Shown piece by piece: positions 6,861 to 61,729 of a DNA stretch of 64,000 bases (position 1 is the first letter of the stretch; each line of letters opens with the position of its first letter). Origin of the DNA: Pseudomonadota bacterium (GTDB lineage: Bacteria > Chloroflexota > Ktedonobacteria > Ktedonobacterales > JADMIN01); NCBI GenBank assembly GCA_021324535.1, contig JAJPIU010000203.1:5366-69365 (forward strand). Reading direction: 5' to 3'. The position numbers and the translations under genes are program-made. The notes beneath the pieces were generated by a model. That model saw only the letters and a list, made by a program, of their open reading frames with translations. It made no database searches and was not told the origin of the DNA.

Positions 6861-8303
6861 CTATCCACGCGCCCCGCCCAACACTCGGTTGCGCTGGCCG
6901 CCACGCAGATACTGCGTCTCGGCTGGCTTGCGACCAAACAAGCGGCCAAGCCAATCGAACCAGCGTTTGTATTCGCCTGTCTCCCAGACCACCAGGATCA
7001 TACTGGCGTTGAAGATTGAGGAGTACGTCCCCGACGCGATGCCGATCAGCAGGGCCAGCGTAAACTGCTGGATGCTTGCGCCGCCGAAGAGCGTCAACGC
7101 CGACAGGGTGAACAACACAGTGAGCGAGGTGTTCAGTGAACGCGACATCGTCTGGATCAGGCTGGTGTTCACCACCGTCTCAAACGACTCTGAGGTGCGG
7201 CGCGCCAGATTCTCGCGGATGCGGTCGAACACCACAATGGTATCATGGACGGAGAAGCCGATCACCGTCAGCACAGCGGTCAGGAACAGCGAGTCCACCT
7301 TGAAGTTGAAGAAGTGGCCGAAGATCGCCCACAGGCCCACCACCACCAGTACGTCGTGCAGCAGCGCGATGATGGCGCTGGAGCCAAAGCGGACGGCGCG
7401 CCATGCACTCCCGACTTTGTGGAAGGCAATAGCGATGTAGGCCAGAATGGCGGCTGAAGCCAGCAACACAGCGAAGAAAGCATTGATAGTCGTCTGCGAG
7501 GCAATGGCTGGGCCAACGTTGTTTTGATCCTGCACGAACGCCGGGCCGTAGGTGTGGCTCAACTGGAAGACGATGGCATCGAGCTGGGCGCCTTGCAAGA
7601 AGGTCTGGGTATTCACCTCATAGATCGTCTCGTTCTGCCCCTGCGCGACGTTCGTCACCTTCACCGGGAAGGTCTGGCCGCTCGTTGTGGGCGTGGCTGT
7701 CGCGGCGGGCGTAGCAGCGCTGGCAGCCGTCGTCGCGGTCGCGGCGGGCGTAGTCGTCTTTGTCGCCGTTCCCTTCGCTGTGGCGGTCGCCTTCACCGTT
7801 GGCGTAGGCGTCACCTGGACGGGTGGCGCGTCGGTCGGTGGCAGCTTCTTCAACGCCGCCTCCACCTTCGCCACCGTCGTATCGGAGTTGAAGTGAACCA
7901 CCATCAGCGCCGTTTGTGTCTTGGAGCCAGGTGTTGTGACAGTGTAGTAGACACGATCAATGTTGTTCTCGCCGATGCCAAGCAATTGGCGGACGTTTTC
8001 TACCTCGTTCGCGCCGATGGGGCGGCTGAACGTGATGTAGAAATAGCGTTTCGCCGGAATCGCCCCATTTTGGGCGTTCGTCGAGGCGTACACCTGCACG
8101 TCCTGCGCGCCTGCGTTCTTGAATGCCTGGGCGACCTCCGTCGTGGTGACGTTGTTGTGGGCAAAACGCAGGTCAATCGTGGCGCCATTGGTGAAGTCAA
8201 TGCCAAGATTGAGGTGCCAGAAGATCAACGCCAACAGGCCAGGAATGATGATCAGGCCGGAGATGGCGAAGAACCAGTATTTATAACGGGTCAAATGGTA
8301 CAC
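6861..8303 (-). CDS. secF: Protein translocase subunit SecF, with enlarged periplasmic region
   Basis: The 480-aa ORF has a C-terminal 6-TM SecF core (...FHKVGSAWRAVRFGSSAIIALLHDVLVVVGLWAIFG...DTIVVFDRIREN...). It also carries a T/A/P-rich insert (TPTPTVKATATAKGTATKTTTPAATATTAASAATPAATATPTTSG). GTG start with AAGAGGA upstream. Confidence 0.9.
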   Translation of the reverse strand: MYHLTRYKYWFFAISGLIIIPGLLALIFWHLNLGIDFTNGATIDLRFAHNNVTTTEVAQAFKNAGAQDVQVYASTNAQNGAIPAKRYFYITFSRPIGANEVENVRQLLGIGENNIDRVYYTVTTPGSKTQTALMVVHFNSDTTVAKVEAALKKLPPTDAPPVQVTPTPTVKATATAKGTATKTTTPAATATTAASAATPAATATPTTSGQTFPVKVTNVAQGQNETIYEVNTQTFLQGAQLDAIVFQLSHTYGPAFVQDQNNVGPAIASQTTINAFFAVLLASAAILAYIAIAFHKVGSAWRAVRFGSSAIIALLHDVLVVVGLWAIFGHFFNFKVDSLFLTAVLTVIGFSVHDTIVVFDRIRENLARRTSESFETVVNTSLIQTMSRSLNTSLTVLFTLSALTLFGGASIQQFTLALLIGIASGTYSSIFNASMILVVWETGEYKRWFDWLGRLFGRKPAETQYLRGGQRNRVLGGARG

Positions 8304-8325
8304 GGATTCGTCCTCTTATTCTTCG

Positions 8326-10059
8326 TTATTCCTCAGCCTCGCTGGCTTCGTCGGTCGTCTCGGCGGATGGCGTCGGTTGTGACGCCCCACGTCCCTTCTT
8401 GCGCAGGCTACCGGTCGTCCCTCGCGAGACGCTACGTGCGCCGTTGCGCGCCACGCCATTGAGCGTGCCCGCGCTGACGGGTTTGCCTACAGCGGCCAAC
8501 TCGCCTGAATCGGTCGCCTCATCTGCGCTTTCCTCGTCAGTTTGCGCCCCTGCTGAATCGAGCGGCAGAGCGTCCTCATCCTCCTCGGCAGAGGACAGCG
8601 CGCCCTCGTTTTCTTCCTCTTCGTCCGCCTCATCCTCAACAGCTACCGGCTGTGTGGCAATCACCACAGGCTGGCGCGCACGTGCGCTCACAGGGGCAAT
8701 GCGCTGGCCGGGGCGATTATAGCGCGCTACATTCACCGCGCTAACCGGCAAGCCGTACAGCTCTGGATGCGTGGCAATGCCGGAGAAGAGCAACAACGTC
8801 AGGAAGTTGCGCGTGACCACGACGGCGGTGAAGAGGCTGATCAACACGCCGATGGCGAGGTTCGTCGCGAAGCCAACGATGATCTCAGCGCCGAAGTTAT
8901 TGCCAAACCAGTACAGAATGACAGAGGTGATCAGCGTCGAAGCGTTGGAGTCGCGGATGGAGGGCCAGGCGCGCTTGAAGCCAACATCCACCGCCGAGGC
9001 CATTGTGCGCCCGGCGCGTAACTCCTCTTTCACACGCTCGAATATCAGGATGTTGGCGTCTACCGCCATACCAATCGTCAGGATCAACGCCGCGATGCCG
9101 GGCAGCGAGAGCGTGACGCCCACCAGCTTGATCACCGCGAACAGGAAGAGCGCATAGAGGACAAGCGCCATGTCGGCCAGCAATCCGGGCAGGCGGTAGA
9201 AGATCAGCATGAAGAGCACCACCAACCCCAGGCCGATCAGCGCGGCGCGGGCGCTGTAGTAGATCGCCTGCTGACCAAGCGTCGCCGCCAACTGCTGCTC
9301 GCCGACAAACTTCAACGGCAACGGCAGTGCGCCATATTTGAGTGTCGTGGCGAGGTCTTGCGCCTGGGTCAGCGTGCCTATGCCAGTGATCTGCCCCTGG
9401 CCGTCGATCTCGCTCTGAATCGTCGCAGACTCAATCACCTTATTATCAAGTGTGATTGTCAGATACTTGCCAACATTGTTGCGCGTGTAGGTGGCAAACT
9501 TGGACTTGGCCGCGCCCTGGAAGGTGAAGACCACCACCGGCTGGTTCGTCTGGCTGTCGATCTGGGCGCTGATGGAGTTGGGATCAAGATCGGAGCCTTG
9601 CAACACGACAGGGTATTGTCCCTCAGTAACAGTTGAGCCAATGGTGAGAGGTTGGCCACTGGTGTCAATGATTTCCATATGGCCGGTCTGGCCAAGCAAC
9701 GCGCGCGCCTGGGTATCATCGCGGATGCCGGGCAACTGAATGAGAATCTCATCGGTCTGCGCCTGACGCACCACTGCGTCGTTCACGCCCAGGCCGCCGC
9801 TCACACGCTTCTGAATCGCAGTGATCACCGCAGGCATCGCGCCCGCTTTATCGCAGTTGGGCTTGTTGGCGGGGCACTGCGCCTGAAGGATGAACTGAAG
9901 CCCCCCGGTCAGGTCAAGCCCCTGGCGGACTTGTAGCGAGTTGTTATAGCCTCCGATGTGGATGCCCGGCGTATTGGGCAGGTCAACATAGACAGCGCCT
10001 GCTGTCAGCAGCAGGATGAAGATCAAAAAGAAGATCGAGCGACTGATATTCGCGCGCAT
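8326..10059 (-). CDS. secD: Protein translocase subunit SecD, with acidic disordered C-terminal tail
   Basis: The 577-aa ORF has a SecD core (...LDLTGGLQFILQA...GIAALILTIGMAVDANILIFERVKEELRAG...). About 140 aa of D/E/S/A-rich tail follow. It lies immediately upstream of secF on the same strand. Confidence 0.9.
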   Translation of the reverse strand: MRANISRSIFFLIFILLLTAGAVYVDLPNTPGIHIGGYNNSLQVRQGLDLTGGLQFILQAQCPANKPNCDKAGAMPAVITAIQKRVSGGLGVNDAVVRQAQTDEILIQLPGIRDDTQARALLGQTGHMEIIDTSGQPLTIGSTVTEGQYPVVLQGSDLDPNSISAQIDSQTNQPVVVFTFQGAAKSKFATYTRNNVGKYLTITLDNKVIESATIQSEIDGQGQITGIGTLTQAQDLATTLKYGALPLPLKFVGEQQLAATLGQQAIYYSARAALIGLGLVVLFMLIFYRLPGLLADMALVLYALFLFAVIKLVGVTLSLPGIAALILTIGMAVDANILIFERVKEELRAGRTMASAVDVGFKRAWPSIRDSNASTLITSVILYWFGNNFGAEIIVGFATNLAIGVLISLFTAVVVTRNFLTLLLFSGIATHPELYGLPVSAVNVARYNRPGQRIAPVSARARQPVVIATQPVAVEDEADEEEENEGALSSAEEDEDALPLDSAGAQTDEESADEATDSGELAAVGKPVSAGTLNGVARNGARSVSRGTTGSLRKKGRGASQPTPSAETTDEASEAEE

Positions 10060-12275: not shown

Positions 12276-12680
12276 ATGAAGCAGCAGCGCCAACACCATC
12301 AATCTATTCATCTTCGGCCATTGCAGCAGATACACCAAACTCACCGCGATCAATCAGCGCGCGACAGGCGCCGCTGGCAGCCGATCATCATGGGGTCGCT
12401 CACGCTTGGCGCATTGGTGGTGACGGTGGCGACACACCCAACCGTGCGCTACTGGTTAACAGAAGGCGCTTCGATCTTCTTTGTGTTTGGCGGGGTAGTC
12501 GCTGCGCCGCTCATGTCTGTGGTGGCGTGGATAGGATTGACGCTGCCCCATAACGTCGGCCTCCACCAGATCGCGCCCACCCTCTTCATTGCCGCGCTGG
12601 TGTGGTTCTGCCTTGCGCTTGGCGGCGCTCACGCCCACAGTGTGCGCCAGAGGCTAGATAATCCCTACGAGTCAGTTTAG
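12276..12680 (+). CDS. Hypothetical small membrane protein (about 3 TM)
   Basis: Hydrophobic segments begin at MGSLTLGALVVTVA. There is no clear SD and the N-terminal 38 aa look non-genuine, so the start may be near 12390. Confidence 0.4.
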   Translation: MKQQRQHHQSIHLRPLQQIHQTHRDQSARDRRRWQPIIMGSLTLGALVVTVATHPTVRYWLTEGASIFFVFGGVVAAPLMSVVAWIGLTLPHNVGLHQIAPTLFIAALVWFCLALGGAHAHSVRQRLDNPYESV

Positions 12681-13757
12681 TGTGGCGGCCTGCAAGGCAA
12701 TGTAGCCATCGCTGACGTAGCTGGTCTGCATGCTGAACATGATGGTCAACTGCTGGTTGGCGCTGGCAGCCTGGTAGGTGATCGTATAGGTTGCGTCAAT
12801 CTCGCCAGTGGTGGCGCCCAGCGAAGAGTCGGTATATTGGCTGGCGCTGTCGTCGCTGAGTGACGCGGTAAACACCGCCTGCGCACGATAGGCGCCCACA
12901 TAGACGGTCAGCGTGCGCGTCGTGGTGTCCGCTGGGAGGGTGAGCGAGAAGCCATTGCCAGCCCCCCGCACATAGATACCACACGTCACATTGCTGACGC
13001 TTGCGGTTGGCTGACCATCGCTCCAACTATAGGCGACGTTTGCCGCATCATAGCGCCCGACTTGCGCGCCGCCAATAAGCGTATAGGTACTGATCTGGCT
13101 ATTGCCGGTGGCGCGATGATTGAAATCGGTAGGGCTGGTAAGGCCCCAATGCGCCCAATCGCTAGAGTTTGTATTGGCGAGCGTCGTCAGGTTGGCCTGG
13201 CTGGGCGAGGGAGCCAGCGCGCCCGAAAGATACCCACCGCCCGGCGCGATTGCCGGAGTGCGCGTTGTGGCTGGCAGCGTCGGCAGGGTGATGGTACTGA
13301 CGCCTGGGGCGGCTGTGGCCGGAGCGAGGGCGCCACCCACCAGCGAAGAGATGGTGGAAGCCAGCAGAATCGCCCCGACAACGCCAACGATGGCCGCAAG
13401 CGCAAACACCACAAAGATCACTCGCCGCTGACCAATACGCTTCTTGCTCGCCTCATTGGCGAATGAGGATTGCGCCAGCCGCGCTTGCCCTCCTTTGCGC
13501 TGACCCAATGAGCCATACGAATAGGCGGGCGGGCGCTTGTGCGCAAAGCGGCTCATGGGAGGCCGCCGCCACGGCGTCAGACGCAGCTCTTCGCCGGGCG
13601 TCGGCAGATATGGCTCGGTTTCTTTCTCAAAAGAAGACGTTGATGGCGTTGGCGCCTGGTCGCCTGAGGGTGGCGCGGCAAGGGGAGCCAGCGATGTTGC
13701 GGTTGGCTCCTCATCGGTCGGAGCGCGCCAGGGGGTAGGAAGGTTCGAGCCGTCCAA
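12672..13757 (-). CDS. Hypothetical single-pass membrane protein with extracytoplasmic beta-rich domain
   Basis: 361 aa: a Pro-rich cytoplasmic N-terminus, a TM segment (VIFVVFALAAIVGVVGAILLAS), then an S/T/G/A/Y-rich C-terminal domain. TTG start with AAGGA upstream. No family recognised. Confidence 0.6.
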   Translation of the reverse strand: MDGSNLPTPWRAPTDEEPTATSLAPLAAPPSGDQAPTPSTSSFEKETEPYLPTPGEELRLTPWRRPPMSRFAHKRPPAYSYGSLGQRKGGQARLAQSSFANEASKKRIGQRRVIFVVFALAAIVGVVGAILLASTISSLVGGALAPATAAPGVSTITLPTLPATTRTPAIAPGGGYLSGALAPSPSQANLTTLANTNSSDWAHWGLTSPTDFNHRATGNSQISTYTLIGGAQVGRYDAANVAYSWSDGQPTASVSNVTCGIYVRGAGNGFSLTLPADTTTRTLTVYVGAYRAQAVFTASLSDDSASQYTDSSLGATTGEIDATYTITYQAASANQQLTIMFSMQTSYVSDGYIALQAATLN

Positions 13758-16928: not shown

Positions 16929-17543
16929 ATGATTCAGGCCATATGCTTTGACCTCGATGGCGTGCTTCGCCTATGGGATGGTCGTCTTGTCGCACAGATC
17001 GAACAAGAGTCGGGCCTTCCAAGGGGGACAATCCACACCATTGCGTTCGAGCCAACGCTGTTGGAGCAGGCCATCACAGGGCGGATAAGCGATGATGTGT
17101 GGCGTGACGCTATTGCCGAACGCCTTTACCAGCAGTTTCCCGCGCTTACCGCAGCGCATGCGCAGACGCTCATCCGGCGTTGGTCATCGCCGGTAGGCGC
17201 AGTTGATGAGGATGTGCTTGCCATTGTCCGTGAGTGCCGTCGGCGGGTCAGGGTGTTGCTTGTGACCAACGCCACATTGCGCCTGTCATCCGATCTTGCC
17301 TGCTTGGGAGTTGATAGCGAGTTCGACGCTATTATCAACTCTGCTGAACTTGGCTGGCGCAAACCACAGCGAGAGCTATTTCACGCGGTGATCGATCAGG
17401 CAGGAGTCGAAGCGTCGCATATTCTGTTTGTAGACGATACGCCTGAAAACGTGAAAGCGGCTGAAGAGGCAGGGCTGGTCGGCCATCTGTATCGGGATGC
17501 GCTGGAGCTACATGACATAGTGCAGCGTTATGGCGTGCTTTGA
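16929..17543 (+). CDS. HAD-superfamily hydrolase
   Basis: Motif I FDLDGVL follows directly after MIQAIC, motif II is LLVTNAT, and motif IV is FVDDTPENV. A GAAGGAAAG SD sits upstream of the ATG at 16929; the track ORF starts earlier at 16863. Confidence 0.85.
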   Translation: MIQAICFDLDGVLRLWDGRLVAQIEQESGLPRGTIHTIAFEPTLLEQAITGRISDDVWRDAIAERLYQQFPALTAAHAQTLIRRWSSPVGAVDEDVLAIVRECRRRVRVLLVTNATLRLSSDLACLGVDSEFDAIINSAELGWRKPQRELFHAVIDQAGVEASHILFVDDTPENVKAAEEAGLVGHLYRDALELHDIVQRYGVL

Positions 17544-17633
17544 TCCACCTTGCCATACATGCCCCTGGTGGTATCATTCAAATGTGCTGACATCCCTTTC
17601 CAGAGACAATATGCGACAAGAAAGAGCATTCTC

Positions 17634-18461
17634 ATGGCGCAAGACTACATGCAAGACTACGCAGCGAACGCGACATCCTTTGACGATAAGACTGAGCTAC
17701 GCGGGCAGGTGGCCCTGGTGACGGGCGCCAGCAGCGGGATCGGCGCGGCGGTGGCCGAGGCGCTGGTACGGCGAGGTGTCTCCGTGGCGATGGCGGCCCG
17801 CCGGACAGATCGCCTACAGGAGATGGCCGCGCGGCTGGCCGACGAAGCGCGCGAACGCAACGCCAATGACGGCGCCTACGGCGAGACGCTCGCGCTGGCC
17901 TGCGACGTGCGCGACGCAGGGCAGACTGAGGCCGCCGTGCGGCAGACGCTCGACCGCTGGCGGCGGCTTGACATCGTGGTGGCAAACGCTGGCATCGGCA
18001 TACGCCGCCCACTCGTCGAAGCGGATCCCCAACGCTGGAAGGAGATGCTCGACACCAACGTCTACGGCCTGCTACTGACCCTGAAGTACGCAGTCGCGCC
18101 GATGCTCGAACGCAAGCGTGGCCATGTGATCGTCATGTCGTCGGTGGCGGGGCGTGTACCGACAGGAGGCGGCAGCGCCTATTGCGGCGCGAAGGCGGCG
18201 GCCACCGCCATCGCCGAATCGCTGCGTATCGAAGTTAGCGCGCAGGGAGTGCGTGTCACCACAATTGAGCCGGGCGTGGTGATCTCCGAGTTCCAGCAGG
18301 TGGCGGAATACGCGCCGGAGATCGTGCCCAATATGCTCAAAGGCGCGACTCCGCTCTACCCCGCCGACATCGCGCGCACCATCATCTTCGCGCTCGAACA
18401 ACCCGCATCGGTGGGCCTCCACGAGATTTTGATACGTCCAGCCGGGCAGGTGTATCCGTAG
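17634..18461 (+). CDS. SDR family oxidoreductase (short-chain dehydrogenase)
   Basis: TGASSGIG cofactor motif, NAG motif, and catalytic S...YCGAKAA (YxxxK). The likely start is the ATG at 17634. Confidence 0.85.
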   Translation: MAQDYMQDYAANATSFDDKTELRGQVALVTGASSGIGAAVAEALVRRGVSVAMAARRTDRLQEMAARLADEARERNANDGAYGETLALACDVRDAGQTEAAVRQTLDRWRRLDIVVANAGIGIRRPLVEADPQRWKEMLDTNVYGLLLTLKYAVAPMLERKRGHVIVMSSVAGRVPTGGGSAYCGAKAAATAIAESLRIEVSAQGVRVTTIEPGVVISEFQQVAEYAPEIVPNMLKGATPLYPADIARTIIFALEQPASVGLHEILIRPAGQVYP

Positions 18462-18553
18462 CGCACGTAGCGGCGGCTCCTGCCTCGCTGGGAAGCGAAA
18501 TGGGGGGACAAATGGCGCGACGACCCCCTTTTGGGTAGTTCGCGCTCCCCTTG

Positions 18554-18581
18554 TTGACCCCTGGCAGAAACGTGGTATACT
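18554..18581 (+). promoter_or_regulatory. Sigma-70-like promoter (TTGACC - 16 nt - TATACT)
   Basis: Read directly. It lies at the start of the ~1 kb non-coding region that precedes rho and points towards rho. Confidence 0.5.
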
Positions 18582-19510
18582 CTCTAGTGAAGAGACCACT
18601 CTCGGCGCGCTACACCGCCTAACGTTGCGCCACTGCTTCACCACACTGCTGAACATGGGTCTCTTTAAAACAAAAAGCGGGCGCCAATCGTCCGCCTGCC
18701 ATCTGCCAACGCAACGCGCTAATTGGTCATCTACTTGCGCGTATACATCGTCAAGCGCGCAGGAGCATAAGCGCCTGCCAGTTTGGCACTCTCAAGTTTT
18801 TGCATCATTGTCAGACACACTGCGCGGTACAGTTTCTTCACGCCGTCTCAGCGAACAGCGTTGCTGGGAATCTCCTGTAGAGGGGTGAGGAAAAAGGGAG
18901 GACAAAAGGAACTATTGTGCGCTTCAGGCGCTGCGCTTCGTTTAGGCATAGAGCACTCACTATACGCCGTGCCCGACAAGCTCTCGACACAGTAAATTGT
19001 CGCTTCTGCGCCTGCATATCCTCAGTCGCCCCTGGCATCATGCTCAACCGCCACTTGGCCGGACAAGTAGCGCCGAGCCAGCGAAATCGTCAGCGGGCCT
19101 ACCTGCGGCGCCGGTATGTTTCTTCACTAATTTGCGCATGGTGTGTTCTGTAGTCACTTGACTTGGATGGGTGAAATGGGTGTTTGGGGCGCCATGCCTA
19201 ATTTTGCGCGCACACCATGGGGAGTTGCGCTGTTTCGCCATCACGCCGCCATCCGGCGCCAGCTCCGGCTGCGTGAGGAAAAGTGAACGTCGTCTAGTGA
19301 AAGACACTCGCAGCCTGGCGCCGTCAGGGAGCTTTTCATGCGGTTCGCTATTTCCTCCGCTGGATCATCTGGTGGCCTCTCTGTAGCCAACTGAATTATC
19401 AATCAAATCGCCAACCAAATATGTTCAAACCCAATCCGGCCACAGCAGACGCCACGGAAATTATGTGGTTCAGGCTGTTTGACCACCGGTTAGAGTTCCA
19501 GGAGGCCCAT

Positions 19511-22405
19511 GTGCCAACAGATCAGGAAAACGAGCTTTCACCACGCCGACGGGGACGAAAGGCATCCAGCACGTCGAGCACGTCGAGCACGTCGAACATG
19601 TCCGCTGACGGTTTTGGAGGCGATATGAACGCATATGACGCGCCTCGCATGGAGAATCAGATGGAAAGCCAGACAATGGACGCGCTGACGCTGAGCGCGG
19701 TTACAATACCCCCTGCGCGGCGACGCGCAACACGTAGCGCCCCTGCGGTAATTGCAGGCGAACCGGTTCCGTCAGCCGAGGAACCGGCGGCGAAGGCTCC
19801 GCGCGCAAAGGCAGCCAGAACAACAAAAGCGACAAAGGCAAGCATGAGCCAGATGAGCGATTCAGCGGATGATTCGACCACGACGCTTGCAGCGCCCAGT
19901 GATACGCCTGACATTGCCACCCATGAGCGCCAACAGGCGGCTGAGACGTCCGGTGAGCACGCTACGCCGCGCCGCGCAACACGCGCCGTTCGCGCCCGCG
20001 CACAAACGGCTTCTTCGGATGCGCCACCCAGCGGTGAGGTCGCACGGCAAGCGCGCGCGCCGCGCCGACGCGCAACAACGGACGCCTCCGATGTGCAGGC
20101 GGCTACCACCACAGCGCCAACCGATTCGACCGATTCGGCTGGCGCCAATGCAAGCGATGCGAGCGACGAGGCTGCTGGAAGCGCCAAGACTGAAACGGGG
20201 AGCGCGCCGACGCCACGACGACGCTTCGATCATCGTGGACGCAACGCCTACGGGCAAACGATTGTGCTGGGCACGGCGCAGCCGGACGGTTCGGGCGAAC
20301 CGACAGCGCCTGATGCAAGCCGACAGGCCAGCCCTGAACGCGCCGAGTCTTATCAGGCGCCACAGGCTCCACAAACGCCACAAACACAGCGCCCCAACGC
20401 CCGGCAGCAAGGGCAGCAGGGACAACATGGCCAGAACGGCCACGCCCCTCGGTCGGGAAACGCTGGTGGGCAACGTATTAGCGTTCCCTACAATCCAGGA
20501 ACAGGGACGCGCACGAATGTTTCACGTCCGGGTGGTCAGCCCAACCAACCGGCGCAGGGCCAACCAGGAAGGCAACCCAACCAGCCGCACCAGGGGCGCC
20601 AGGGCGGGCGAGGAAACCAGCAGAACCAACAGAATCAGCAAGTCCCTGGGTATGCGCAGGGTGGCTACGCGCCGTACCCACCCTATGGGCCTGGCTATCC
20701 ACCTGCGCCAGGGGCGCCCTATGCGCCGTATCCCCCGTATGGGCAGGGAAACCCTGGCGAGTATGCGCCGTACCCACCCTATGGCTCTGGCTATCCGCCT
20801 GCGCAACAAGACGGCGGCCAGGGGTATCCTCCGAATTATGGGCAGGGGTACGGCCAGCAGTGGGGCCAGCCCGGCCAGCCGGCGCCCTATCCCTATGGGC
20901 GACGCGACGAGCGCGACGCCTATGGCGCACAGCGGCAAGCGCCTGATTACCAGCCGACCCGAACAGATCGCAACGCGCGTGGACGTGGCTATGGGACGAA
21001 CTATCCTGAGCAGCCGGGGCGTGGGTATCCCGACCAGCGCAACGGTTCAACGCGGCCTGCGCCGTATGGCGACCAGCGCGATCAACGGAACGTGCCGTCG
21101 CGCGGCGCGGCGCCACAGCGCGGACGAACGCAACGCGAGGGACAGGCCGCCATGCCATCCGCCGGTTCGCTCTATACCAACGTGCCACCCACACAGCCTG
21201 TGCCCAGCCCTGATGGGCGTTACGCCTATCCTCCCGCGCCCACACAGACGCGGCAGCCCGCCGCCTACACGCGCGCAGCCACCATTGAGATGAGCGGGAT
21301 TGTCTGGCAGAATCCAGGGCATCCCAACGCGCCGGCCGATGTGCTCGATGCGCGCACGCTCCTGCCGATTGCGCGGATCACCGCCGACGAGATGCGGCGG
21401 ATGCTGTTGCGGCCAGGCGATCTGATCGAGGCGCAGGCGGAGGAGCGCGGAGGCCGACGCACTATCGTCGCGCTGAACAACGTGAACGGCGACGCGCCGG
21501 AACGGCTGCGTGAACGGCCTGTCTTCGAACAACTGACGGCGCTTTTCCCTGACCGGCGTATCCGGCTGGAGCATGGGCCGCGCCCCATCTCCGCACGCAT
21601 CATAGATCTCTTCGCGCCGCTGGGCTTTGGCTCGCGCGCGTTGATCGTCGCGCCGCCCAAGACTGGTAAGACGACATTCATCCGCGAGGCGGCGGAATCC
21701 GTCTTGCATGGCTACCCTGAAGCCGTGGTGATGGCCGTGCTGGTGGGTGAGCGCCCCGAAGAGGTGACCGACCTGCGATTGCGATTGGAGCCAAGTGGTG
21801 GGCATGTCTACGCCGCCAGCTTCGATGAAAGCACCGAGCGGCACGCCTGGCTTGTGCAGGTGGCGGTGGAGCGCGCCAAGCGCGTAGCGGAATCTGGCCG
21901 CGACGCATTCATGGTGCTCGATTCGCTCACCCGGTTGGCGCGCGCCGAGAACCTTTCGACACGCGGCAATGGGCGCACACTCAGTGGCGGTATTGACGCC
22001 CAGGCGCTCGATACCGGGCGGCGCGCCTTTGGGGCCGCGCGCAATCTCGAAGAGGGCGGCAGCATCACTATTCTGGCCACCTGTTTGGTGGACACCGGCA
22101 GCCGCCAGGATGACGTGGTGTACGAAGAGTTCAAGGGCACAGGCAACATGGAGATTCACCTCTCGCGTGAGCTTGCTCAGCGTCGTCTTTTCCCGGCGGT
22201 GGATGCTGTGAAATCGGGCACACGCCGCGAAGAGATGTTGCTGACGCCCGAAGAGTTGCGTGGCGCGACGGCCCTACGCCGCCGCATGGCGGGCCTGCCT
22301 ACCACCGAGGCGACGCAGCAGTTGCTCTCGGTGATGGAGCGCACACCCTCCAACGCCGCGCTGTTGCAGGCCATCGAGCAGAGCAACGTGAGCGGCGTGC
22401 GCTAG
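19511..22405 (+). CDS. rho: Transcription termination factor Rho with a very long N-terminal low-complexity extension
   Basis: The C-terminal ~370 aa are canonical Rho: RFG-like RNA-binding part, Walker A APPKTGKT, VLVGERPEEVTD, LDSLTRLARA, and the C-terminal KSGTRREE. The ORF is open from ATG 19421, but GTG 19511 has AGGAGG 5 nt upstream. Confidence 0.9.
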   Translation: MPTDQENELSPRRRGRKASSTSSTSSTSNMSADGFGGDMNAYDAPRMENQMESQTMDALTLSAVTIPPARRRATRSAPAVIAGEPVPSAEEPAAKAPRAKAARTTKATKASMSQMSDSADDSTTTLAAPSDTPDIATHERQQAAETSGEHATPRRATRAVRARAQTASSDAPPSGEVARQARAPRRRATTDASDVQAATTTAPTDSTDSAGANASDASDEAAGSAKTETGSAPTPRRRFDHRGRNAYGQTIVLGTAQPDGSGEPTAPDASRQASPERAESYQAPQAPQTPQTQRPNARQQGQQGQHGQNGHAPRSGNAGGQRISVPYNPGTGTRTNVSRPGGQPNQPAQGQPGRQPNQPHQGRQGGRGNQQNQQNQQVPGYAQGGYAPYPPYGPGYPPAPGAPYAPYPPYGQGNPGEYAPYPPYGSGYPPAQQDGGQGYPPNYGQGYGQQWGQPGQPAPYPYGRRDERDAYGAQRQAPDYQPTRTDRNARGRGYGTNYPEQPGRGYPDQRNGSTRPAPYGDQRDQRNVPSRGAAPQRGRTQREGQAAMPSAGSLYTNVPPTQPVPSPDGRYAYPPAPTQTRQPAAYTRAATIEMSGIVWQNPGHPNAPADVLDARTLLPIARITADEMRRMLLRPGDLIEAQAEERGGRRTIVALNNVNGDAPERLRERPVFEQLTALFPDRRIRLEHGPRPISARIIDLFAPLGFGSRALIVAPPKTGKTTFIREAAESVLHGYPEAVVMAVLVGERPEEVTDLRLRLEPSGGHVYAASFDESTERHAWLVQVAVERAKRVAESGRDAFMVLDSLTRLARAENLSTRGNGRTLSGGIDAQALDTGRRAFGAARNLEEGGSITILATCLVDTGSRQDDVVYEEFKGTGNMEIHLSRELAQRRLFPAVDAVKSGTRREEMLLTPEELRGATALRRRMAGLPTTEATQQLLSVMERTPSNAALLQAIEQSNVSGVR

Positions 22406-22468
22406 ATTGATTATCTTTGGTAGGCCGCTGGCCGCCAGTCATACTCACAGTGGGATATGGCCAGGGGC

Positions 22469-22497
22469 TTGCCTGATGGGCGCAATAGGTGTATACT
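22469..22497 (+). promoter_or_regulatory. Sigma-70-like promoter of rplI (TTGCCT - 17 nt - TATACT)
   Basis: Read directly, about 50 nt upstream of the rplI start. Confidence 0.5.
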
Positions 22498-22548
22498 CGG
22501 TAAGTATGCCTGTTGCGCCTGACTGTGTTTTCAAGGAGTTCCTTTCCC

Positions 22549-23181
22549 GTGAAAGTGATTTTGCTACAAGACGTGCCGGGGCTGGGCAAGCCCGGCGACC
22601 TGAAAGAGGTAGCCCCTGGCTATGCGCGCAACTATCTGTTGCCACGCCAGTTGGTGACGCCAGCCAGCGGCTCTGAGATGGCCAACCTGCGTGAGCGGCT
22701 GGCTGCCACCCGCAAACGTGTGGAAAAGCAGCAGGCCGAGCATGCCTCGCTGTCCCAGAAGCTGGCGGGCGTGACGCTCACCTTCGCCGTGCGTGCGGGC
22801 CAGAACAATCGCCTGTATGGCTCGGTCACAGCGCAAGACATCGCCGATGCGTTGCTCGAACAAGAGGGTTTGACCGTCGAACGGCGCACCATTGTTTTGC
22901 ATGAGCCGCTACGCCAGTTGGGAACCTTTGAGGTGCCTGTGCGCGTCGCGCCGAAGGTTGAGCCAAAGATTACCGTCAAGGTGATCTCCTCAGAGGAAGC
23001 GTCCGCCCAGGCAAACGCCGCAGCCTCAGCAGAAGCGGCTGAATCGCCCGAAGCATCCGTAGCATCTGCGGCATCCGCGGCATCCGCAGCGTCCACTGAA
23101 GATGAGGAAGACGCCGAAGAAGAGGATACTGAAGGTACCGAGGACACGGAGGACACGGAGGACACGGAGGACGAAGCGTAA
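22549..23181 (+). CDS. rplI: 50S ribosomal protein L9 with acidic repeat tail
   Basis: VKVILLQDVPGLGKPGDLKEVAPGYARNYLLPRQLV is the L9 N-terminal signature. GTG start after AAGGAG. The C-terminus is extended by A/S-rich and TEDTEDTEDTEDE sequence. Confidence 0.9.
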   Translation: MKVILLQDVPGLGKPGDLKEVAPGYARNYLLPRQLVTPASGSEMANLRERLAATRKRVEKQQAEHASLSQKLAGVTLTFAVRAGQNNRLYGSVTAQDIADALLEQEGLTVERRTIVLHEPLRQLGTFEVPVRVAPKVEPKITVKVISSEEASAQANAAASAEAAESPEASVASAASAASAASTEDEEDAEEEDTEGTEDTEDTEDTEDEA

Positions 23182-23217
23182 TCCTCTCTGTTCCGCGCCG
23201 CAATTTTGCTACTGATA

Positions 23218-23263
23218 CCCCAGCGTCAGGGTTACATGCTCCCGGCATGCCGTGACGCTGGGG
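23218..23263 (+). terminator. Stem-loop downstream of rplI (possible terminator)
   Basis: 11-bp perfect stem CCCCAGCGTCA/TGACGCTGGGG enclosing a nested CATGC/GCATG hairpin. The downstream U-tract is weak. Confidence 0.45.
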
Positions 23264-23381
23264 ATCGCTGTCTCTTTGGGATTTAGGGTGTAGGGTGTGT
23301 TGCCAGATCTTTCCTTGTCCCATGATGATATGATGCAGGCAAAGTGGCGCATTCGCATGGCAAGGCGCCAGATACGACGAG

Positions 23382-23957
23382 ATGAAGATAACGCATGAGA
23401 GAGCAGTCAAGGCAAGGGATAAGAACGTGGAACGGGCGACACAGGAGCCAGCTGAAAAAACAGTAGACGAGTCGCGCACAGTAATGGCGCGCGCCATGCA
23501 GCCGCCCGACGCCAACGTGTGGGGCAACGTGCACGGCGGAGCTATCATGCGGATGGTTGACGAGGCGGGCGGGGCAGCCGCCATTCGCCATTCGCGCTGC
23601 CGGTGTGTCACCGTCGCAATGGACTCTATGACCTTTAAGCAACCCGTCTATATCGGCGATCTGCTCACCGTCACCGCTTTTCTGACGCATGTTGGCCGCT
23701 CCTCGATGGAGGCGCAGGCAATCATCGAGGCCGAGAATCTGCGCAGCGGACTGAGGCGCCATGTCGGCGTCAGCTACCTTGTCTATGTGGCAATTGATGA
23801 TCAGGGGCGGCCAACCCCCGTGCCCAGGCTCAAGCTGCGCACCGACGAAGAGCGCGCCCGCTGGCAGGCCGCCGAGCGCCGAGGCGCGCGCCGCCGCCAG
23901 GAGGCGGCCCTTCAGCAGGCGGAGACACAACAGGCAGAGCAGGAGGGCAAGCTATGA
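23382..23957 (+). CDS. Acyl-CoA thioesterase (hotdog fold, YciA/BFIT-like)
   Basis: PPDANVWGNVHGGAIMRMVDEAGGAAA...VTVAMDSMTFKQPVYIGDLL matches the acyl-CoA thioester hydrolase hotdog pattern. Confidence 0.85.
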   Translation: MKITHERAVKARDKNVERATQEPAEKTVDESRTVMARAMQPPDANVWGNVHGGAIMRMVDEAGGAAAIRHSRCRCVTVAMDSMTFKQPVYIGDLLTVTAFLTHVGRSSMEAQAIIEAENLRSGLRRHVGVSYLVYVAIDDQGRPTPVPRLKLRTDEERARWQAAERRGARRRQEAALQQAETQQAEQEGKL

Positions 23958-60350: not shown

Positions 60351-60379
60351 GGCATTTCGCAGCATAGGGGAGAAAAACA

Positions 60380-61729
60380 ATGAGTCGGCCAGCAGCGTCT
60401 ACCAAAGCGCGTCCTCAGAGCGCCAGGGTTTCCGGCGTCCGACGCCAGCCGCCGACAGGAGCGACAGGAGCAACCGGAGCAACCGGGCAGGCGAGCAAGA
60501 AGAGCAGCGCGTCGTCGGCTGGTTCGGTGAAGGAGCGCTCATCTGCGGTTGTTTCGCAGGCCATGCGAACAGCGCCGTCCGGCGCAGCGGCTGAACAGGG
60601 GAAGCGTGAGACCGTCACGCCAAAGGCCAACACGGCCAAAGCAGCGTCGCGTCCTCCCACGAAGACAAGCAGTAAACCACCGAAGAAAGGCAATTCAGGC
60701 GAACTGCTTGCGGCATTGGCGAAGCTACCAATACGCTGGCTGGCGTTTGGCGCCGTGCTGGTTGCGCTCATTGCCGGTTCGTTCGCGCTCTATCGCGCCT
60801 TTGGCCCCAATGCGGGAAGCGGCTCTACAAGCGGCGGGTCTTCATCCATCTCCGCGCTGCAAGGCGATGACCTCGGCGGGACGCCAGCGCCAAACTTCAC
60901 GCTGACCGATCAAAACGGCAATCCAGTCACGCTCAGTTCGTTGCGTGGCCACCTGATCGCGCTGACCTTCTTCGATTCGCTCTGCCCACATACCGACTGT
61001 TCGTTGATGGCGCAGTATGTGATGGCGAGCGCCAATCTGATGACGCCACAGGAGCGCGCACAGGTGACATGGCTGGCGATCAGCCTAAATCCCTGGCACG
61101 ACACCCCCGCCACGGCCAAAACGTTTTTGTCGTCACACAATGTGACGATCCCCATGCGCTATCTGCTTGGCACGCTGGGGCAGGTCGCTCCCGTCTGGAG
61201 CGACTATCACATGGAATCAATTCTGCAATCCAACGGCATTGTCATCCATACCACCGGCCTCTATATCATCGATCAGCAGGGACTTGAGCGCGTCTTCCTC
61301 GAAGAGGGATTCGATCCCCATATGCTGGCGGACGACCTGCATCTACTGCTGACGAAGCATATTCCTATCAGCGCCAGGGCCACAGCGCAAAGCGATAACT
61401 CCGTCTCGCTGACGCAATCTACAAACACCGGAACGCTGACCCTGCGCGCCATCCCTGGCCAGTATGGCACGTATGACTTCGAGTTATGGGTGTGGGACGC
61501 GAACCAACAACCTGTGCAAGCCGCCCAGGCGACGCTTGATCTGACGATGACCGATATGGTGATGCAGCCGGTGCATGTCGTCTTCCAGCCGGACGCAGAC
61601 CTCGGCTCAGGCGTCTATCAGGCGCACGGCGTGGTCTCGATGGCAGGCCATGCGAAGGTGGTGGTGAATGTGCAGCCGCTGAGTGGCTCGCCCATTCAGG
61701 CGACATTTTACTTCACCGCGAAGTATTGA
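60380..61729 (+). CDS. SCO1/SenC-family thioredoxin-fold copper chaperone with N-terminal disordered region and C-terminal YtkA-like domain
   Basis: FTLTDQNGNPVTLSSLRGHLIALTFFDSLCPHTDCSLM ... HTTGLYIIDQQG fits the SCO pattern, though the Cys motif is CPHTDC rather than the usual CxxxC. The C-terminal ~100 aa are paralogous to the CopCD C-terminus. Confidence 0.75.
   Translation: MSRPAASTKARPQSARVSGVRRQPPTGATGATGATGQASKKSSASSAGSVKERSSAVVSQAMRTAPSGAAAEQGKRETVTPKANTAKAASRPPTKTSSKPPKKGNSGELLAALAKLPIRWLAFGAVLVALIAGSFALYRAFGPNAGSGSTSGGSSSISALQGDDLGGTPAPNFTLTDQNGNPVTLSSLRGHLIALTFFDSLCPHTDCSLMAQYVMASANLMTPQERAQVTWLAISLNPWHDTPATAKTFLSSHNVTIPMRYLLGTLGQVAPVWSDYHMESILQSNGIVIHTTGLYIIDQQGLERVFLEEGFDPHMLADDLHLLLTKHIPISARATAQSDNSVSLTQSTNTGTLTLRAIPGQYGTYDFELWVWDANQQPVQAAQATLDLTMTDMVMQPVHVVFQPDADLGSGVYQAHGVVSMAGHAKVVVNVQPLSGSPIQATFYFTAKY

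What the first reader, a model, noticed from the sequence alone, without database searches (positions are those of the whole stretch)
19421..21290. Rho factor in which about two thirds of the protein is an N-terminal prion-like / low-complexity extension
Only the last ~370 aa of the ORF ending at 22405 are canonical Rho, running from ...IEMSGIVWQNPG through Walker A APPKTGKT to the C-terminus. The preceding ~600 aa fall into compositionally extreme blocks. (i) An S/T/A/R-rich basic block with recurring RRAT-like motifs (ARRRATRS, PRRATRAVRARAQ, RAPRRRATT). (ii) A Q/N/G/P-rich block (QQGQQGQHGQNGH, GQPNQPAQGQPGRQPNQPHQGRQGGRGNQQNQQNQQ). (iii) A Y/P/G block (YAPYPPYGPGYPPAPGAPYAPYPPYGQGNPGEYAPYPPYGSGYPP...GYPPNYGQGYGQQWGQPGQPAPYPYG). 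(iv) An R/D/Y/G-rich block. Established knowledge: actinobacterial Rho proteins carry R/G-rich inserts, Clostridium botulinum Rho has a prion-forming domain, and a Bacteroides Rho IDR drives condensate formation. This protein combines all three flavours at unusual length, and I cannot recognise the usual N-terminal helical bundle by eye.
Basis: partly seen in the sequence, partly recalled or inferred. Interest (0 to 1): 0.6.

Follow-up and report, generated by a model that had tools for sequence, protein, structure and literature searches.

The report
Rho with giant disordered N-terminus
This soil-type Chloroflexota bacterium (order Ktedonobacterales) makes a transcription terminator Rho whose first ~590 of 964 residues are a real, translated, disordered tail, while the usual helix bundle and RNA-recognition residues are gone; it is an extreme example of a kind of Rho already described.

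Summary
A single gene encodes a Rho-family protein. Only its last ~375 residues fold (OB fold plus RecA-type ATPase; 1.7 Å rmsd to E. coli Rho). The preceding ~590 residues are low-complexity and predicted disordered (pLDDT below 50, no secondary structure).

The real start is GTG 19511 (964 aa), not ATG 19421. Eight related Ktedonobacterales loci share AGGAGG, a 5-nt spacer, GTG and the peptide MPEDQE…RRRxRR, and nothing upstream of that. Database calls of 926 aa and 371 aa for this same gene are gene-caller choices. 'Short' relatives are truncated calls or frameshifted long-read contigs.

The extension is clade-wide (389–647 aa). The part covered by the closest relative is under purifying selection (pN 0.18 vs pS 0.72). 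The extension matches no other protein family.

The canonical primary RNA-binding residues (F62, F64, R66, D78, Y80, E108, Y110) are all replaced, while the motor motifs are intact.

Atypical Rho factors with disordered, condensate- or prion-like added regions are already catalogued, including a type with no recognisable N-terminal domain (Moreira 2024). This is therefore a new, extreme variant, not a new kind. 'Prion-like' remains only a compositional resemblance, and the high proline content argues against it.

The parts
19500..19505 (+). Shine-Dalgarno AGGAGG, 5 nt before the start codon
   Evidence: Read directly. AGGAGG or TGGAGG with a 5-nt spacer is conserved in 8 of 8 related loci, while the sequence further upstream is unrelated.
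19511..22405 (+). rho coding sequence from the GTG start to the stop codon (964 aa)
   Evidence: ORF. Conserved start. NCBIfam NF006886 Rho equivalog 386.4 bits against a cut-off of 315. PDB Rho chains E = 5e-94 to 1e-80.
19511..19561 (+). Conserved N-terminal peptide MPTDQENELSPRRRGRK (clade consensus MPEDQE-x3-5-RRRxRR)
   Evidence: Alignment of 8 full-length translations. Conservation is at the protein level, with synonymous codon variation. Also present in P0003, P0006, P0007, P0008, P0010 and P0152.
19511..20275 (+). Block i: A/T/S/R-rich basic-acidic tract with RRRATR, RRATR, RRRATT and PRRRFDHRGR motifs (residues 1-255)
   Evidence: Composition and motif positions. pLDDT below 50-51 and no secondary structure.
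20276..20641 (+). Block ii: Q/G/P/N-rich tract (residues 256-377), including the conserved island VPYNPG
   Evidence: Q23 G16 P14 N8 %; maximum of 30 Q+N per 80 aa at residues 299-378. The (V/P)PYxPG island is shared with relatives.
20642..20899 (+). Block iii: P/G/Y/Q-rich uncharged tract (residues 378-463), APYPPYG three times
   Evidence: P28 G23 Y20 Q12 %, 0 % K/R, and a 49-residue run with no charged residue. The APYxPYG island is conserved in relatives.
20900..21190 (+). Block iv: R/G/P/Q/D/Y-rich tract with RGRGYG and DQRDQR motifs (residues 464-560)
   Evidence: Composition. 72 % identical to the closest relative, with pN 0.18 and pS 0.72 over residues 418-589.
21191..21277 (+). P/A/T-rich linker before the fold, with conserved islands LYTN and DGRYA (residues 561-589)
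   Evidence: pLDDT rises from 51 to 74 across this stretch.
21278..21493 (+). OB fold (residues 590-661): five strands and one helix, structurally a Rho RNA-binding domain but without the canonical primary-binding-site residues
   Evidence: AlphaFold strands E590-599, E609-612, E619-623, helix H625-630, strands E638-646, E649-658; pLDDT 94-97. Superposes on E. coli Rho within a 378-column alignment, rmsd 1.7 Å. Pfam Rho_RNA_bind scores only 11.7-15.1 bits against a cut-off of 27. F62, F64, R66, D78, Y80, E108 and Y110 are all replaced.
21317..21340 (+). Degenerate RNP1-equivalent segment GHPNAPAD (E. coli QDGFGFLR)
   Evidence: Alignments. Coordinates.
21494..22402 (+). Connector and RecA-type ATPase/translocase domain (residues 662-964)
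   Evidence: PF00006 E = 5.7e-22. Motifs confirmed: Walker A APPKTGKT 21650-21673; catalytic Glu 21749-21751; Q-loop GRTLSGGID 21971-21997; R-loop TGSRQDD 22094-22114; Arg finger 22223-22225.
19421..19510 (+). In-frame codons upstream of the true start (not coding; part of the 5' leader)
   Evidence: No conservation in any relative. The in-frame 'residues' before V differ completely in 8 loci and in P0152.

Best explanation
The gene 19511-22405 encodes the Rho-type transcription terminator of a Ktedonobacterales bacterium. SHOWN: translation very probably starts at GTG 19511. The product has an intact Rho motor (Walker A/B, catalytic Glu, Arg finger, Q- and R-loops) and a structurally intact OB fold. 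It has no N-terminal helix bundle, and every canonical residue of the pyrimidine-specific primary RNA-binding pocket is replaced. In front of the OB fold lies a ~590-residue region that is net basic (+14), hydrophobic-poor, rich in Arg, Tyr, Pro, Gly, Gln and Ala, and predicted to be fully disordered. The same architecture (389-647 aa extension) is conserved across the clade. Sequence identity survives only in short islands and in the extreme N-terminal peptide. INFERRED: because the two classical RNA-loading elements are gone, the disordered region has taken over initial transcript capture. Its arginine-rich motifs (RRRATR, RGR, RRRFDHRGR; 58 Arg per chain, about 350 per hexamer) would bind RNA non-specifically and with high avidity. 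This would let the ring load onto GC-rich, structured transcripts, as shown experimentally for the disordered insertion of M. tuberculosis Rho. The 31 Tyr and 58 Arg 'stickers', separated by Gly/Pro/Gln spacers and multiplied sixfold in the hexamer, make condensate formation with RNA plausible, as shown for Bacteroides thetaiotaomicron Rho. Once RNA reaches the central channel, termination would proceed as in canonical Rho.
For: Identity and fold: NF006886 386.4 bits, above its 315 cut-off; PDB Rho chains E = 5e-94; AlphaFold core pLDDT 92-97; Foldseek against E. coli Rho E = 3.7e-41, 378 columns, rmsd 1.7 Å, TM 0.83. Motor motifs intact. Start and translation: SD plus GTG plus MPEDQE conserved in 8 of 8 loci with unrelated sequence upstream; 0 stops in 593 codons against 13.2 expected; pN 0.176 against pS 0.716 in the covered part of the extension; uninterrupted frames of 754-1016 aa in L001, L002, L003, L004, L023, L031 and L032; no conserved internal SD-preceded start. 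Disorder: residues 1-~575 have pLDDT below 50 and no DSSP element; no Pfam family at E <= 10. Loss of the helix bundle and binding-site residues. Compositional conservation (R 10-12 %, K 0-3 %, net charge +13 to +21). Precedents for function: the Mtb insertion domain is disordered and needed for Rut-site selection, 1759 sites against 47 without it (PMC13650167); insertion domains of M. luteus and Mtb Rho raise RNA affinity and allow use of structured RNA (PMC8828861); the B. thetaiotaomicron Rho disordered region drives phase separation (as summarised in PMC11347177).
Against: There is no experimental evidence for expression, RNA binding, termination or condensates in this lineage. Disorder is inferred from low pLDDT with a shallow alignment (64 rows) and from composition; no dedicated disorder, LLPS or prion predictor could be run. 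The OB fold might still bind RNA through other residues: a conserved W599 and conserved EERGGRR. In that case the 'replacement' of the binding site by the disordered region would be overstated. The binding-site residue list comes from my own knowledge of the E. coli structures, supported here only by its invariance in the canonical sequences of the alignment. I could not check whether these genomes also carry a canonical rho. Clade-invariant changes next to catalytic residues (D210 to G, Y274 to E) leave motor activity unproven.
Confidence: 0.6

Rival explanations
1. Only a short protein is made. Translation starts at an internal codon near 21290 (as in the JGI 371-aa call, P0028) or a little upstream, and the low-complexity region is untranslated leader.
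For: One public gene call starts at ATG 21290 (P0028). Many clade members are annotated at 367-460 aa. GC3 is lower in the extension (0.63) than in the core (0.78). Several subclades have a Met 20-50 residues before the OB fold.
Against: The Met at 21290 is V or I in relatives and has no SD. All checked 'short' relatives have an uninterrupted long frame, or frameshifts typical of long-read contigs. SD+GTG+MPEDQE is conserved in 8 of 8 loci. pN is far below pS in the extension. P is about 1.6e-6 for the stop-free frame. A minor internal isoform alongside the full-length protein cannot be excluded.
Confidence: 0.04
2. The extension is a true prion-forming (amyloid, self-templating) domain like that of Clostridium botulinum Rho. 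It would switch the terminator between active and inactive heritable states.
For: Block ii reaches 30 Q+N in 80 residues. Blocks ii-iii contain a 49-residue uncharged Q/N/G/Y/P run and Sup35- or FUS-like GYG and QGYGQQWGQPGQ motifs. Prion-like windows are predicted in 10-19 % of windows in Rho added regions generally (PMC11347177).
Against: Proline is 14 % in block ii and 28 % in block iii, and block ii is 13 % charged. By established knowledge both disfavour amyloid cores. There is no sequence relationship to any other prion-like Rho domain: 1 hit in 1.84e9 representatives, and that hit is a close ortholog. PLAAC and PAPA could not be run.
Confidence: 0.1
3. The protein is a neofunctionalised Rho paralog ('Rho-like'), not the cell's terminator. 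Having lost the helix bundle and the binding-site residues, it would work as a different RNA- or condensate-associated ATPase, while a canonical rho elsewhere in the genome terminates transcription.
For: It fails the TIGR00767 cut-off (378.9 against 509.45) and the Pfam Rho_RNA_bind cut-off, and has no Rho_N. Under the definition in PMC11347177 (RNA-binding plus ATPase domains detected) it would be 'Rho-like'. 116 genomes in that survey carry more than one Rho. It has clade-specific D210G and Y274E changes.
Against: It passes the NF006886 equivalog cut-off. All motor and secondary-site motifs are kept. The core is under strong purifying selection (pN 0.049). No canonical Rho labelled Ktedonobacterales appeared in three protein searches or in the genome scan, though those searches were not designed to find one. 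The nearest outgroup is from other Chloroflexota and is itself partly degenerate, which suggests orthologous drift.
Confidence: 0.15
4. Assembly or annotation artefact: a chimeric contig or a fusion of two genes.
For: The sequence comes from a metagenome-type assembly. Low-complexity DNA is error-prone. Several relatives are frameshifted.
Against: The identical 926-aa product occurs on three contigs, including a separate NCBI assembly. The same architecture occurs in at least 8 species-level relatives. There is no long tandem DNA repeat.
Confidence: 0.01

Closest known systems
Atypical Rho 'Type 2d' of Moreira et al. [quoted passage not shown]
   Same: A disordered, compositionally biased region sits directly upstream of the OB fold. 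No helix bundle is detectable. It contains APA-, QN- and RxR-type motifs, and the genome is GC-rich.
   Different: The region is about twice as long: 593 aa here, and up to 647 aa in the clade. The RNA-binding domain itself is below HMM threshold, with all primary-site residues replaced, so it would not count as 'functional Rho' under that paper's definition. It has a Tyr/Pro-rich block and a strictly conserved N-terminal peptide. The lineage (Ktedonobacterales) is not discussed in that paper's main text.
Actinobacterial Rho with N-terminal insertion domain (Micrococcus luteus, Mycobacterium tuberculosis; also the Cryobacterium proteins P0013 and P0015 recovered here)
   Same: A basic, Arg-rich disordered region in a high-GC organism. 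Even similar PRRAT/RKRAT motifs and Q/N/R/D tracts are present. Partial erosion of RNP1 is reported in this group. The expected role is capture of structured RNA.
   Different: In those proteins the region is an insertion between a retained helix bundle and an OB fold that keeps most binding-site residues. Here it is an N-terminal extension, and both elements are lost.
Bacteroides thetaiotaomicron Rho (disordered insertion of 309 aa that drives phase separation)
   Same: A long disordered region with Q/N-rich and RxR-type segments on a Rho hexamer. Sticker-spacer composition.
   Different: There the region is inserted after a retained helix bundle. There is no sequence similarity. Here the composition is Tyr/Pro/Gly- and Ala/Thr/Arg-rich. 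Phase separation is untested here.
Clostridium botulinum Rho prion-forming domain
   Same: A Q/N-enriched segment in the N-terminal part of a Rho protein.
   Different: The C. botulinum domain is a short (~70 aa) N/Q-rich insertion in an otherwise canonical Rho. Here Q/N richness is borderline, proline is abundant, and there is no homology.
[quoted passage not shown] Fusobacterium nucleatum) and NCBIfam NF041509 'Rho, short form'
   Same: The folded part (OB fold plus ATPase, ~375 aa) has the same domain content as these short Rho proteins.
   Different: Those have no long extension. The NF041509 score here is 360 bits against a cut-off of 628, so this protein is not a member.

Membership tests
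Transcription termination factor Rho | RecA-type ATPase with Walker A/B, catalytic Glu (E211), Arg valve (R212) and Arg finger (R366) | tested here: met
   APPKTGKT, GERPEEV, LDSLTRLARA and SGTRREE all align with E. coli Rho. PF00006 E = 5.7e-22. The neighbouring D210 is Gly in the whole clade.
Transcription termination factor Rho | Secondary RNA-binding site: Q-loop and R-loop | tested here: met
   GRTLSGGID and TGSRQDD. The K283R, T286S and K326R changes also occur in canonical Rho proteins in the same alignment.
Transcription termination factor Rho | Curated whole-protein HMM cut-offs | tested here: inconclusive
   NF006886 equivalog scores 386.4, above its cut-off of 315 (passes). TIGR00767 scores 378.9, below 509.45 (fails). 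Both match only model positions 81-414.
Transcription termination factor Rho | OB-fold (cold-shock-like) RNA-binding domain as a fold | tested here: met
   AlphaFold gives a five-strand barrel plus helix with pLDDT 94-97. The 378-column superposition on E. coli Rho, rmsd 1.7 Å, covers the OB fold plus ATPase.
Transcription termination factor Rho | Primary binding-site residues (RNP1 GFGF-R66, D78/Y80, E108/Y110); Pfam PF07497 above threshold | tested here: not met
   PF07497 scores 11.7 bits on the whole protein and 15.1 bits on the segment alone, against a cut-off of 27. None of the 7 residues is retained, whereas canonical Chloroflexota and Dehalococcoidia Rho keep them.
Transcription termination factor Rho | N-terminal helix bundle (Pfam PF07498 Rho_N) | tested here: not met
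   No hit even at E <= 10 on the extension alone. No helix is predicted before residue 625.
Transcription termination factor Rho | Hexameric ring; RNA-dependent ATPase; termination activity | not testable with these tools
   Needs biochemistry.
Atypical Rho Type 2d (Moreira et al. 2024) | Added region of more than 25 aa before the RNA-binding domain, with no recognisable N-terminal domain | tested here: met
   A 589-593 aa region precedes the OB fold, and there is no Rho_N.
Atypical Rho Type 2d (Moreira et al. 2024) | RNA-binding domain detected by HMM (their criterion for 'functional Rho') | tested here: not met
   Below the Pfam threshold. Their own model was not available.
Insertion-domain (NID) Rho of Actinomycetota and Bacteroidota | Insertion located between a retained helix bundle and the OB fold | tested here: not met
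   There is no helix bundle. The region is N-terminal and starts at residue 1.
Prion-forming Rho (C. botulinum type) | Q/N-rich candidate prion domain | tested here: inconclusive
   Exactly 30 Q+N in the best 80-residue window, but with 14 % Pro and charged residues. PLAAC and PAPA were not available.
Prion-forming Rho (C. botulinum type) | Sequence relationship to the known prion-like Rho domain family | tested here: not met
   Exhaustive phmmer of the extension found 1 hit at E <= 0.001 among 1.84e9 representatives, and that hit is a close ortholog fragment.
Prion-forming Rho (C. botulinum type) | Amyloid formation and heritable conformational switching | not testable with these tools
   Needs experiments.
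Condensate-forming Rho (B. thetaiotaomicron type) | Long intrinsically disordered region | tested here: met
   pLDDT below 50 and no secondary structure over residues 1-~575. 6 % hydrophobic residues.
Condensate-forming Rho (B. thetaiotaomicron type) | [quoted passage not shown] | not testable with these tools
   Needs experiments. FuzDrop was not available.
NCBIfam NF041509 'Rho, short form' paralog | Curated cut-off of 628 bits | tested here: not met
   360.2 bits.

The most novel reading that the evidence does not exclude
In this Ktedonobacterales clade, Rho has given up sequence-specific (pyrimidine-pocket) RNA recognition altogether. It would select and load onto its targets solely through a ~600-residue disordered Arg/Tyr-rich domain, probably within RNA-protein condensates. 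That would be a terminator whose substrate choice is encoded in a disordered region, with a conserved N-terminal peptide (MPEDQE…RRRxRR) acting as a docking motif for an unknown partner.
Probability: 0.3. Interest if true: 0.65.

Novelty: new variant of a known kind. Interest (0 to 1): 0.4.

Why it matters
Rho is the general transcription terminator of most bacteria, and how it chooses RNA is still only loosely defined. This lineage offers a natural experiment. The motor is kept, but both classical loading elements (the helix bundle and the pyrimidine pocket) are gone, and a very long disordered region stands in their place. If the protein still terminates transcription, a disordered domain would be shown to be sufficient for substrate capture. 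That would extend the recent M. tuberculosis and Bacteroides results to an extreme case.

There is also a practical point. Gene callers and domain-based surveys mis-handle this gene, with calls of 371, 926 or fragmented ORFs and 'Rho-like' status by HMM. Ktedonobacterales may therefore be wrongly scored as having a short Rho or no functional Rho.

Tried and rejected
- **ATG 19421 as start:** rejected. The 30 codons after it are not conserved in any relative.
- **ATG 19625 (NCBI/GEM call, 926 aa):** it has a TGGAGG 4 nt upstream, but it lies in a rapidly diverging stretch and is not conserved. It is possible as a minor start but not the conserved one.
- **ATG 21290 (JGI call, 371 aa):** rejected.
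- **'Short' relatives P0041, P0065 and P0067 as evidence for extension-free forms:** rejected after reading their DNA.
- **L006 and L009 with odd frames:** these are frameshifted long-read MAG contigs, with shifts even inside the ATPase core.
- **My first codon-usage comparison:** it used an out-of-frame core slice and was discarded, then redone.
- **Rfam scan of 17500-23500:** found nothing.
- **Alignment of 1.1 kb upstream regions:** no conserved leader element apart from the SD.
- **Pfam on the isolated extension:** nothing at E <= 10.
- **Literature searches for Ktedonobacter plus Rho, and for Chloroflexi plus primary binding site:** nothing relevant. A search for a paper listing the binding-site residues failed. 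The supplementary tables of Moreira 2024 are not held.
- **Search with the outgroup protein P0085, to find named Ktedonobacteria or a canonical paralog:** gave only uncultured Chloroflexota.
- **A home-made PLAAC score:** considered and not attempted, because I do not have the exact parameter tables.

Full report
**1. What is in the sequence**

An ORF of 994 codons runs from 19421 to 22405 on the + strand. Rho-specific HMMs match only its C-terminal third. NCBIfam NF006886 scores 386.4 bits (cut-off 315) and TIGR00767 scores 378.9 bits (below its 509.45 cut-off). Both cover ATG-numbered residues 653-986, which is model positions 81-414. Pfam finds only the generic ATPase domain PF00006 (E = 5.7e-22). 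It gives a sub-threshold trace of the Rho RNA-binding domain (11.7 bits against a cut-off of 27) and no Rho_N. Solved Rho structures match the same region, with Thermus 8hsj at E = 5e-94 and E. coli 1pv4 at E = 2.9e-90 starting at chain residue 81.

- an A/T/S/R-rich block with RRRATR, RRATR and RRRATT motifs;
- a Q/G/P/N block, with a maximum of 30 Q+N in 80 residues;
- an uncharged P/G/Y/Q block (P 28 %, G 23 %, Y 20 %) with APYPPYG three times;
- an R/G/P/Q/D/Y block.

Hydrophobic residues are 6 % of this region against 28 % of the core. The frame has no stop in 593 codons, where 13.2 are expected from its own base composition (P about 1.6e-6; 0 of 20,000 shuffles). The five other frames have 4-27 stops. 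Only 9-nt micro-repeats exist at the DNA level. The identical product is found on three contigs, including a separate NCBI assembly.

**2. Where translation starts, and whether the extension is made**

The organism is a member of the Ktedonobacterales (Chloroflexota), judging from the genome hits. I took seven related loci with enough upstream DNA (L001, L002, L003, L004, L023, L031, L032) and compared them with the window. All eight share cAGGAGGCCnnt GTG CCA GAA GAT CAG GA. That is an AGGAGG (once TGGAGG) five bases before a GTG, followed by the peptide (M)PEDQE-x3-5-RRRxRR. The sequence immediately upstream is unrelated in all of them. Codons in the conserved peptide vary synonymously, so the conservation is at the protein level.

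The exhaustive search turned up P0152, an N-terminal fragment of a closer relative. It carries the same VPTDQENELSPRRRGR after unrelated in-frame upstream residues. The start is therefore GTG 19511, giving 964 aa. ATG 19421 is not supported.

Public gene calls for this very sequence disagree: 926 aa from ATG 19625 (P0001) and 371 aa from ATG 21290 (P0028). The Met at 21290 is V or I in relatives and has no Shine-Dalgarno sequence. No internal in-frame start with a Shine-Dalgarno sequence is conserved anywhere.

Many clade members are annotated at only 367-460 aa. I read the DNA behind three of them:
- L031 has one uninterrupted frame of ~1016 aa.
- L032, from the most divergent subclade, has one of ~758 aa.
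- L033 is the L031 gene broken into three frames in a long-read contig.
- L006 and L009 are likewise frameshifted, in L009 even within the ATPase core.

Against the closest relative (L035, covering window residues 418-964), the extension part has 72 % amino-acid identity with pN 0.176 and pS 0.716. The core has 92 % identity with pN 0.049 and pS 0.485. Synonymous sites in the extension are near saturation, so the dN/dS ratio is imprecise, but non-synonymous change is clearly suppressed. The refutation criterion 'translation initiates near 21290' is not met.

**3. Structure**

AlphaFold2 on the 964-aa protein with a 64-row alignment gives pLDDT below 50 and not a single secondary-structure element for residues 1-~575 (GTG numbering). 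Confidence rises through 575-589. Then comes a very confident fold (pLDDT 92-97): strands 590-599, 609-612 and 619-623, helix 625-630, strands 638-646 and 649-658, which is an OB fold, followed by the RecA-type domain. Foldseek places it on E. coli Rho (8q3q_a, E = 3.7e-41, 378 aligned columns, rmsd 1.7 Å, TM 0.83 relative to the 419-residue target). It also places it on M. tuberculosis and Thermus Rho. The unaligned ~45 residues of the target correspond to the helix bundle. The extension alone hits no Pfam family even at E <= 10. There is no helix bundle, either next to the OB fold or at the far N-terminus.

**4.

I aligned the protein with E. coli Rho (sequence taken from NC_000913.3) and with canonical insert-bearing Rho proteins. 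The motor motifs are intact: Walker A APPKTGKT, GERPEEV with the catalytic Glu and Arg valve, Walker B, Q-loop GRTLSGGID, R-loop TGSRQDD, and Arg finger SGTRREE.

The OB segment has the normal length. However, the residues that form the pyrimidine-binding primary site in E. coli Rho are all replaced in every clade member. These are F62, F64, R66, D78, Y80, E108 and Y110. This list is from my own knowledge of the E. coli Rho-nucleic acid structures; the existence of a YC-binding pocket in the N-terminal domain is stated in PMC8828861.

Canonical Rho proteins in the same alignment keep these residues, including ones from other Chloroflexota and from Dehalococcoidia. The nearest outgroup is a small set of uncultured Chloroflexota proteins, 53-54 % identical and also without a helix bundle. 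It keeps only F64, R66 and D78. That looks like stepwise erosion. The only aromatic residue in the window's OB fold is W599, which is conserved as W, Y or F in the clade.

**5. Evolution of the extension**

True lengths in the clade are 754-1016 aa, with extensions of 389-647 aa. The window's extension (593 aa) is long but is not the longest. Composition is strikingly constant: R 10-12 %, K 0-3 %, G 11-12 %, P 13-19 %, A 11-16 %, hydrophobic 5-11 %, net charge +13 to +21. Sequence aligns only at islands: the N-terminal peptide, RRRxTR-type motifs, (V/P)PYxPG, APYxPYG, RGxG, LYT(N/H), xRY(A/G), and AR(T/V)VEVxG at the OB boundary.

An exhaustive phmmer search of the extension against 1.84 billion representatives gave one hit, and that hit is an ortholog fragment. 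The region is therefore specific to this Rho lineage and is not a mobile module. Low-hydrophobicity tails of 40-137 residues are common in other proteins of the window. Rho's 588-residue stretch is more than four times the next longest.

**6. Mechanism**

Shown: this is a Rho-type motor with an OB fold, preceded by a translated, conserved, disordered, basic region, and it lacks both classical RNA-loading elements.

Inferred: the disordered region provides initial RNA capture through its arginine-rich motifs, with 58 Arg per chain and about 350 per hexamer. This would suit GC-rich, structured transcripts. The precedent is M. tuberculosis Rho. Its disordered insertion domain is required for productive recruitment (1759 Rut sites with it, 47 without) and for engaging structured Rut sites (PMC13650167). 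The insertions of M. luteus and M. tuberculosis Rho raise RNA affinity (PMC8828861).

Also inferred: the 31 Tyr and 58 Arg spaced by Gly, Pro and Gln, multiplied sixfold in the hexamer, would favour condensates, as shown for B. thetaiotaomicron Rho (summarised in PMC11347177). A true prion or amyloid role is less likely, given 14-28 % proline in the candidate blocks.

**7. Comparison with what is known**

Moreira et al. 2024 (PMC11347177) report that 39.8 % of species have atypical Rho forms. [quoted passage not shown] They describe recurrent APA, QN and RxR motifs. They predict disorder and droplet formation widely, and prion-likeness in a minority of windows. They also note Actinomycetota and PVC-group proteins without a conserved RNP1.

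The general kind is therefore known. What differs here:
- both the helix bundle and all primary-site residues are lost, so the RNA-binding domain falls below HMM detection, and under that paper's definition the protein would be 'Rho-like';
- the size is 61 % of the protein;
- there is a Tyr/Pro-rich block;
- there is a conserved N-terminal peptide;
- the architecture is fixed across a Ktedonobacterales clade, on which I found no literature.

**8. Open points**

- I could not test whether these genomes also carry a canonical rho.
- No disorder, phase-separation or prion predictor was available.
- Clade-invariant D210G and Y274E changes next to catalytic residues are unexplained.
- The ~1-kb gene-free region upstream (18462-19510) shows no conserved element or Rfam family.

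**Verdict**

This is a real, correctly observed feature. It is a new, extreme variant of a known kind of atypical Rho, and of moderate interest.

Noticed in passing
window 22555-23181 (+): Ribosomal protein L9 (Pfam L9_N + L9_C) lies directly downstream of rho. It carries a ~60-residue acidic Ala/Ser/Thr/Glu/Asp tail ending TEDTEDTEDTEDEA. The rho-rplI adjacency is also present in the closest relative (L034/L035), but not in L031/L033.
   Followed up: partly
window 18462-19510: About 1,050 nt with no convincing gene and lower GC (0.49-0.65) lie between an SDR-family gene and the rho start. There is a promoter-like TTGACC-16-TATACT at 18554-18581 (+), no terminator-like site and no Rfam hit. 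Nothing is conserved with relatives except the SD. It could be a long rho leader.
   Followed up: partly
window 19625 and 21290; loci L031 3976-4770, L033 3221-5001: Public gene calls for this gene and its relatives are inconsistent: 926 aa and 371 aa for the same sequence, and dozens of relatives truncated to 367-460 aa. Spurious small ORFs are called across the extension in other frames. Length-based or domain-based surveys would misclassify this lineage's Rho.
   Followed up: yes
L006, L009, L033: Long-read MAG contigs carry frameshifts inside rho, in L009 even within the conserved ATPase core. These are most likely assembly indel errors, not pseudogenes.
   Followed up: partly
window 19869-21293 (+, other frame) and 20478-21245 (-): Long ORFs of 474 and 255 codons overlap the extension in other frames. 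Their Arg/Pro/Ala-rich translations are typical of out-of-frame reading of GC-rich DNA, and they are not genes.
   Followed up: partly
window 21746-21748 (residue 746) and the LARAENL motif in the ATPase domain: There are clade-invariant substitutions at positions that are invariant in all canonical Rho proteins aligned. E. coli D210 becomes Gly, right before the catalytic Glu, and Y274 becomes Glu. The effect on ATPase activity or bicyclomycin sensitivity is unknown.
   Followed up: no
window 21305-21307 (W599): This is the only aromatic residue in the OB fold. It is conserved as W, Y or F across the clade, at a position that is Glu or Asp in canonical Rho. It may be an alternative base-stacking platform.
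   Followed up: no
proteins P0085, P0086, P0090 (uncultured Chloroflexota): This is the nearest outgroup to the clade. These Rho proteins have no helix bundle and a half-degenerate binding site (F64, R66 and D78 kept; Y80 and Y110 lost). One of them (P0090, 577 aa) has its own N-terminal extension.
   Followed up: partly
window 6861-10059 (-), 12672-13757 (-), 57903-61729 (+): Several other ORFs in the window carry low-hydrophobicity stretches of 75-137 residues. This suggests a general tendency of this genome toward disordered tails and linkers. The identities of these ORFs were not checked.
   Followed up: no
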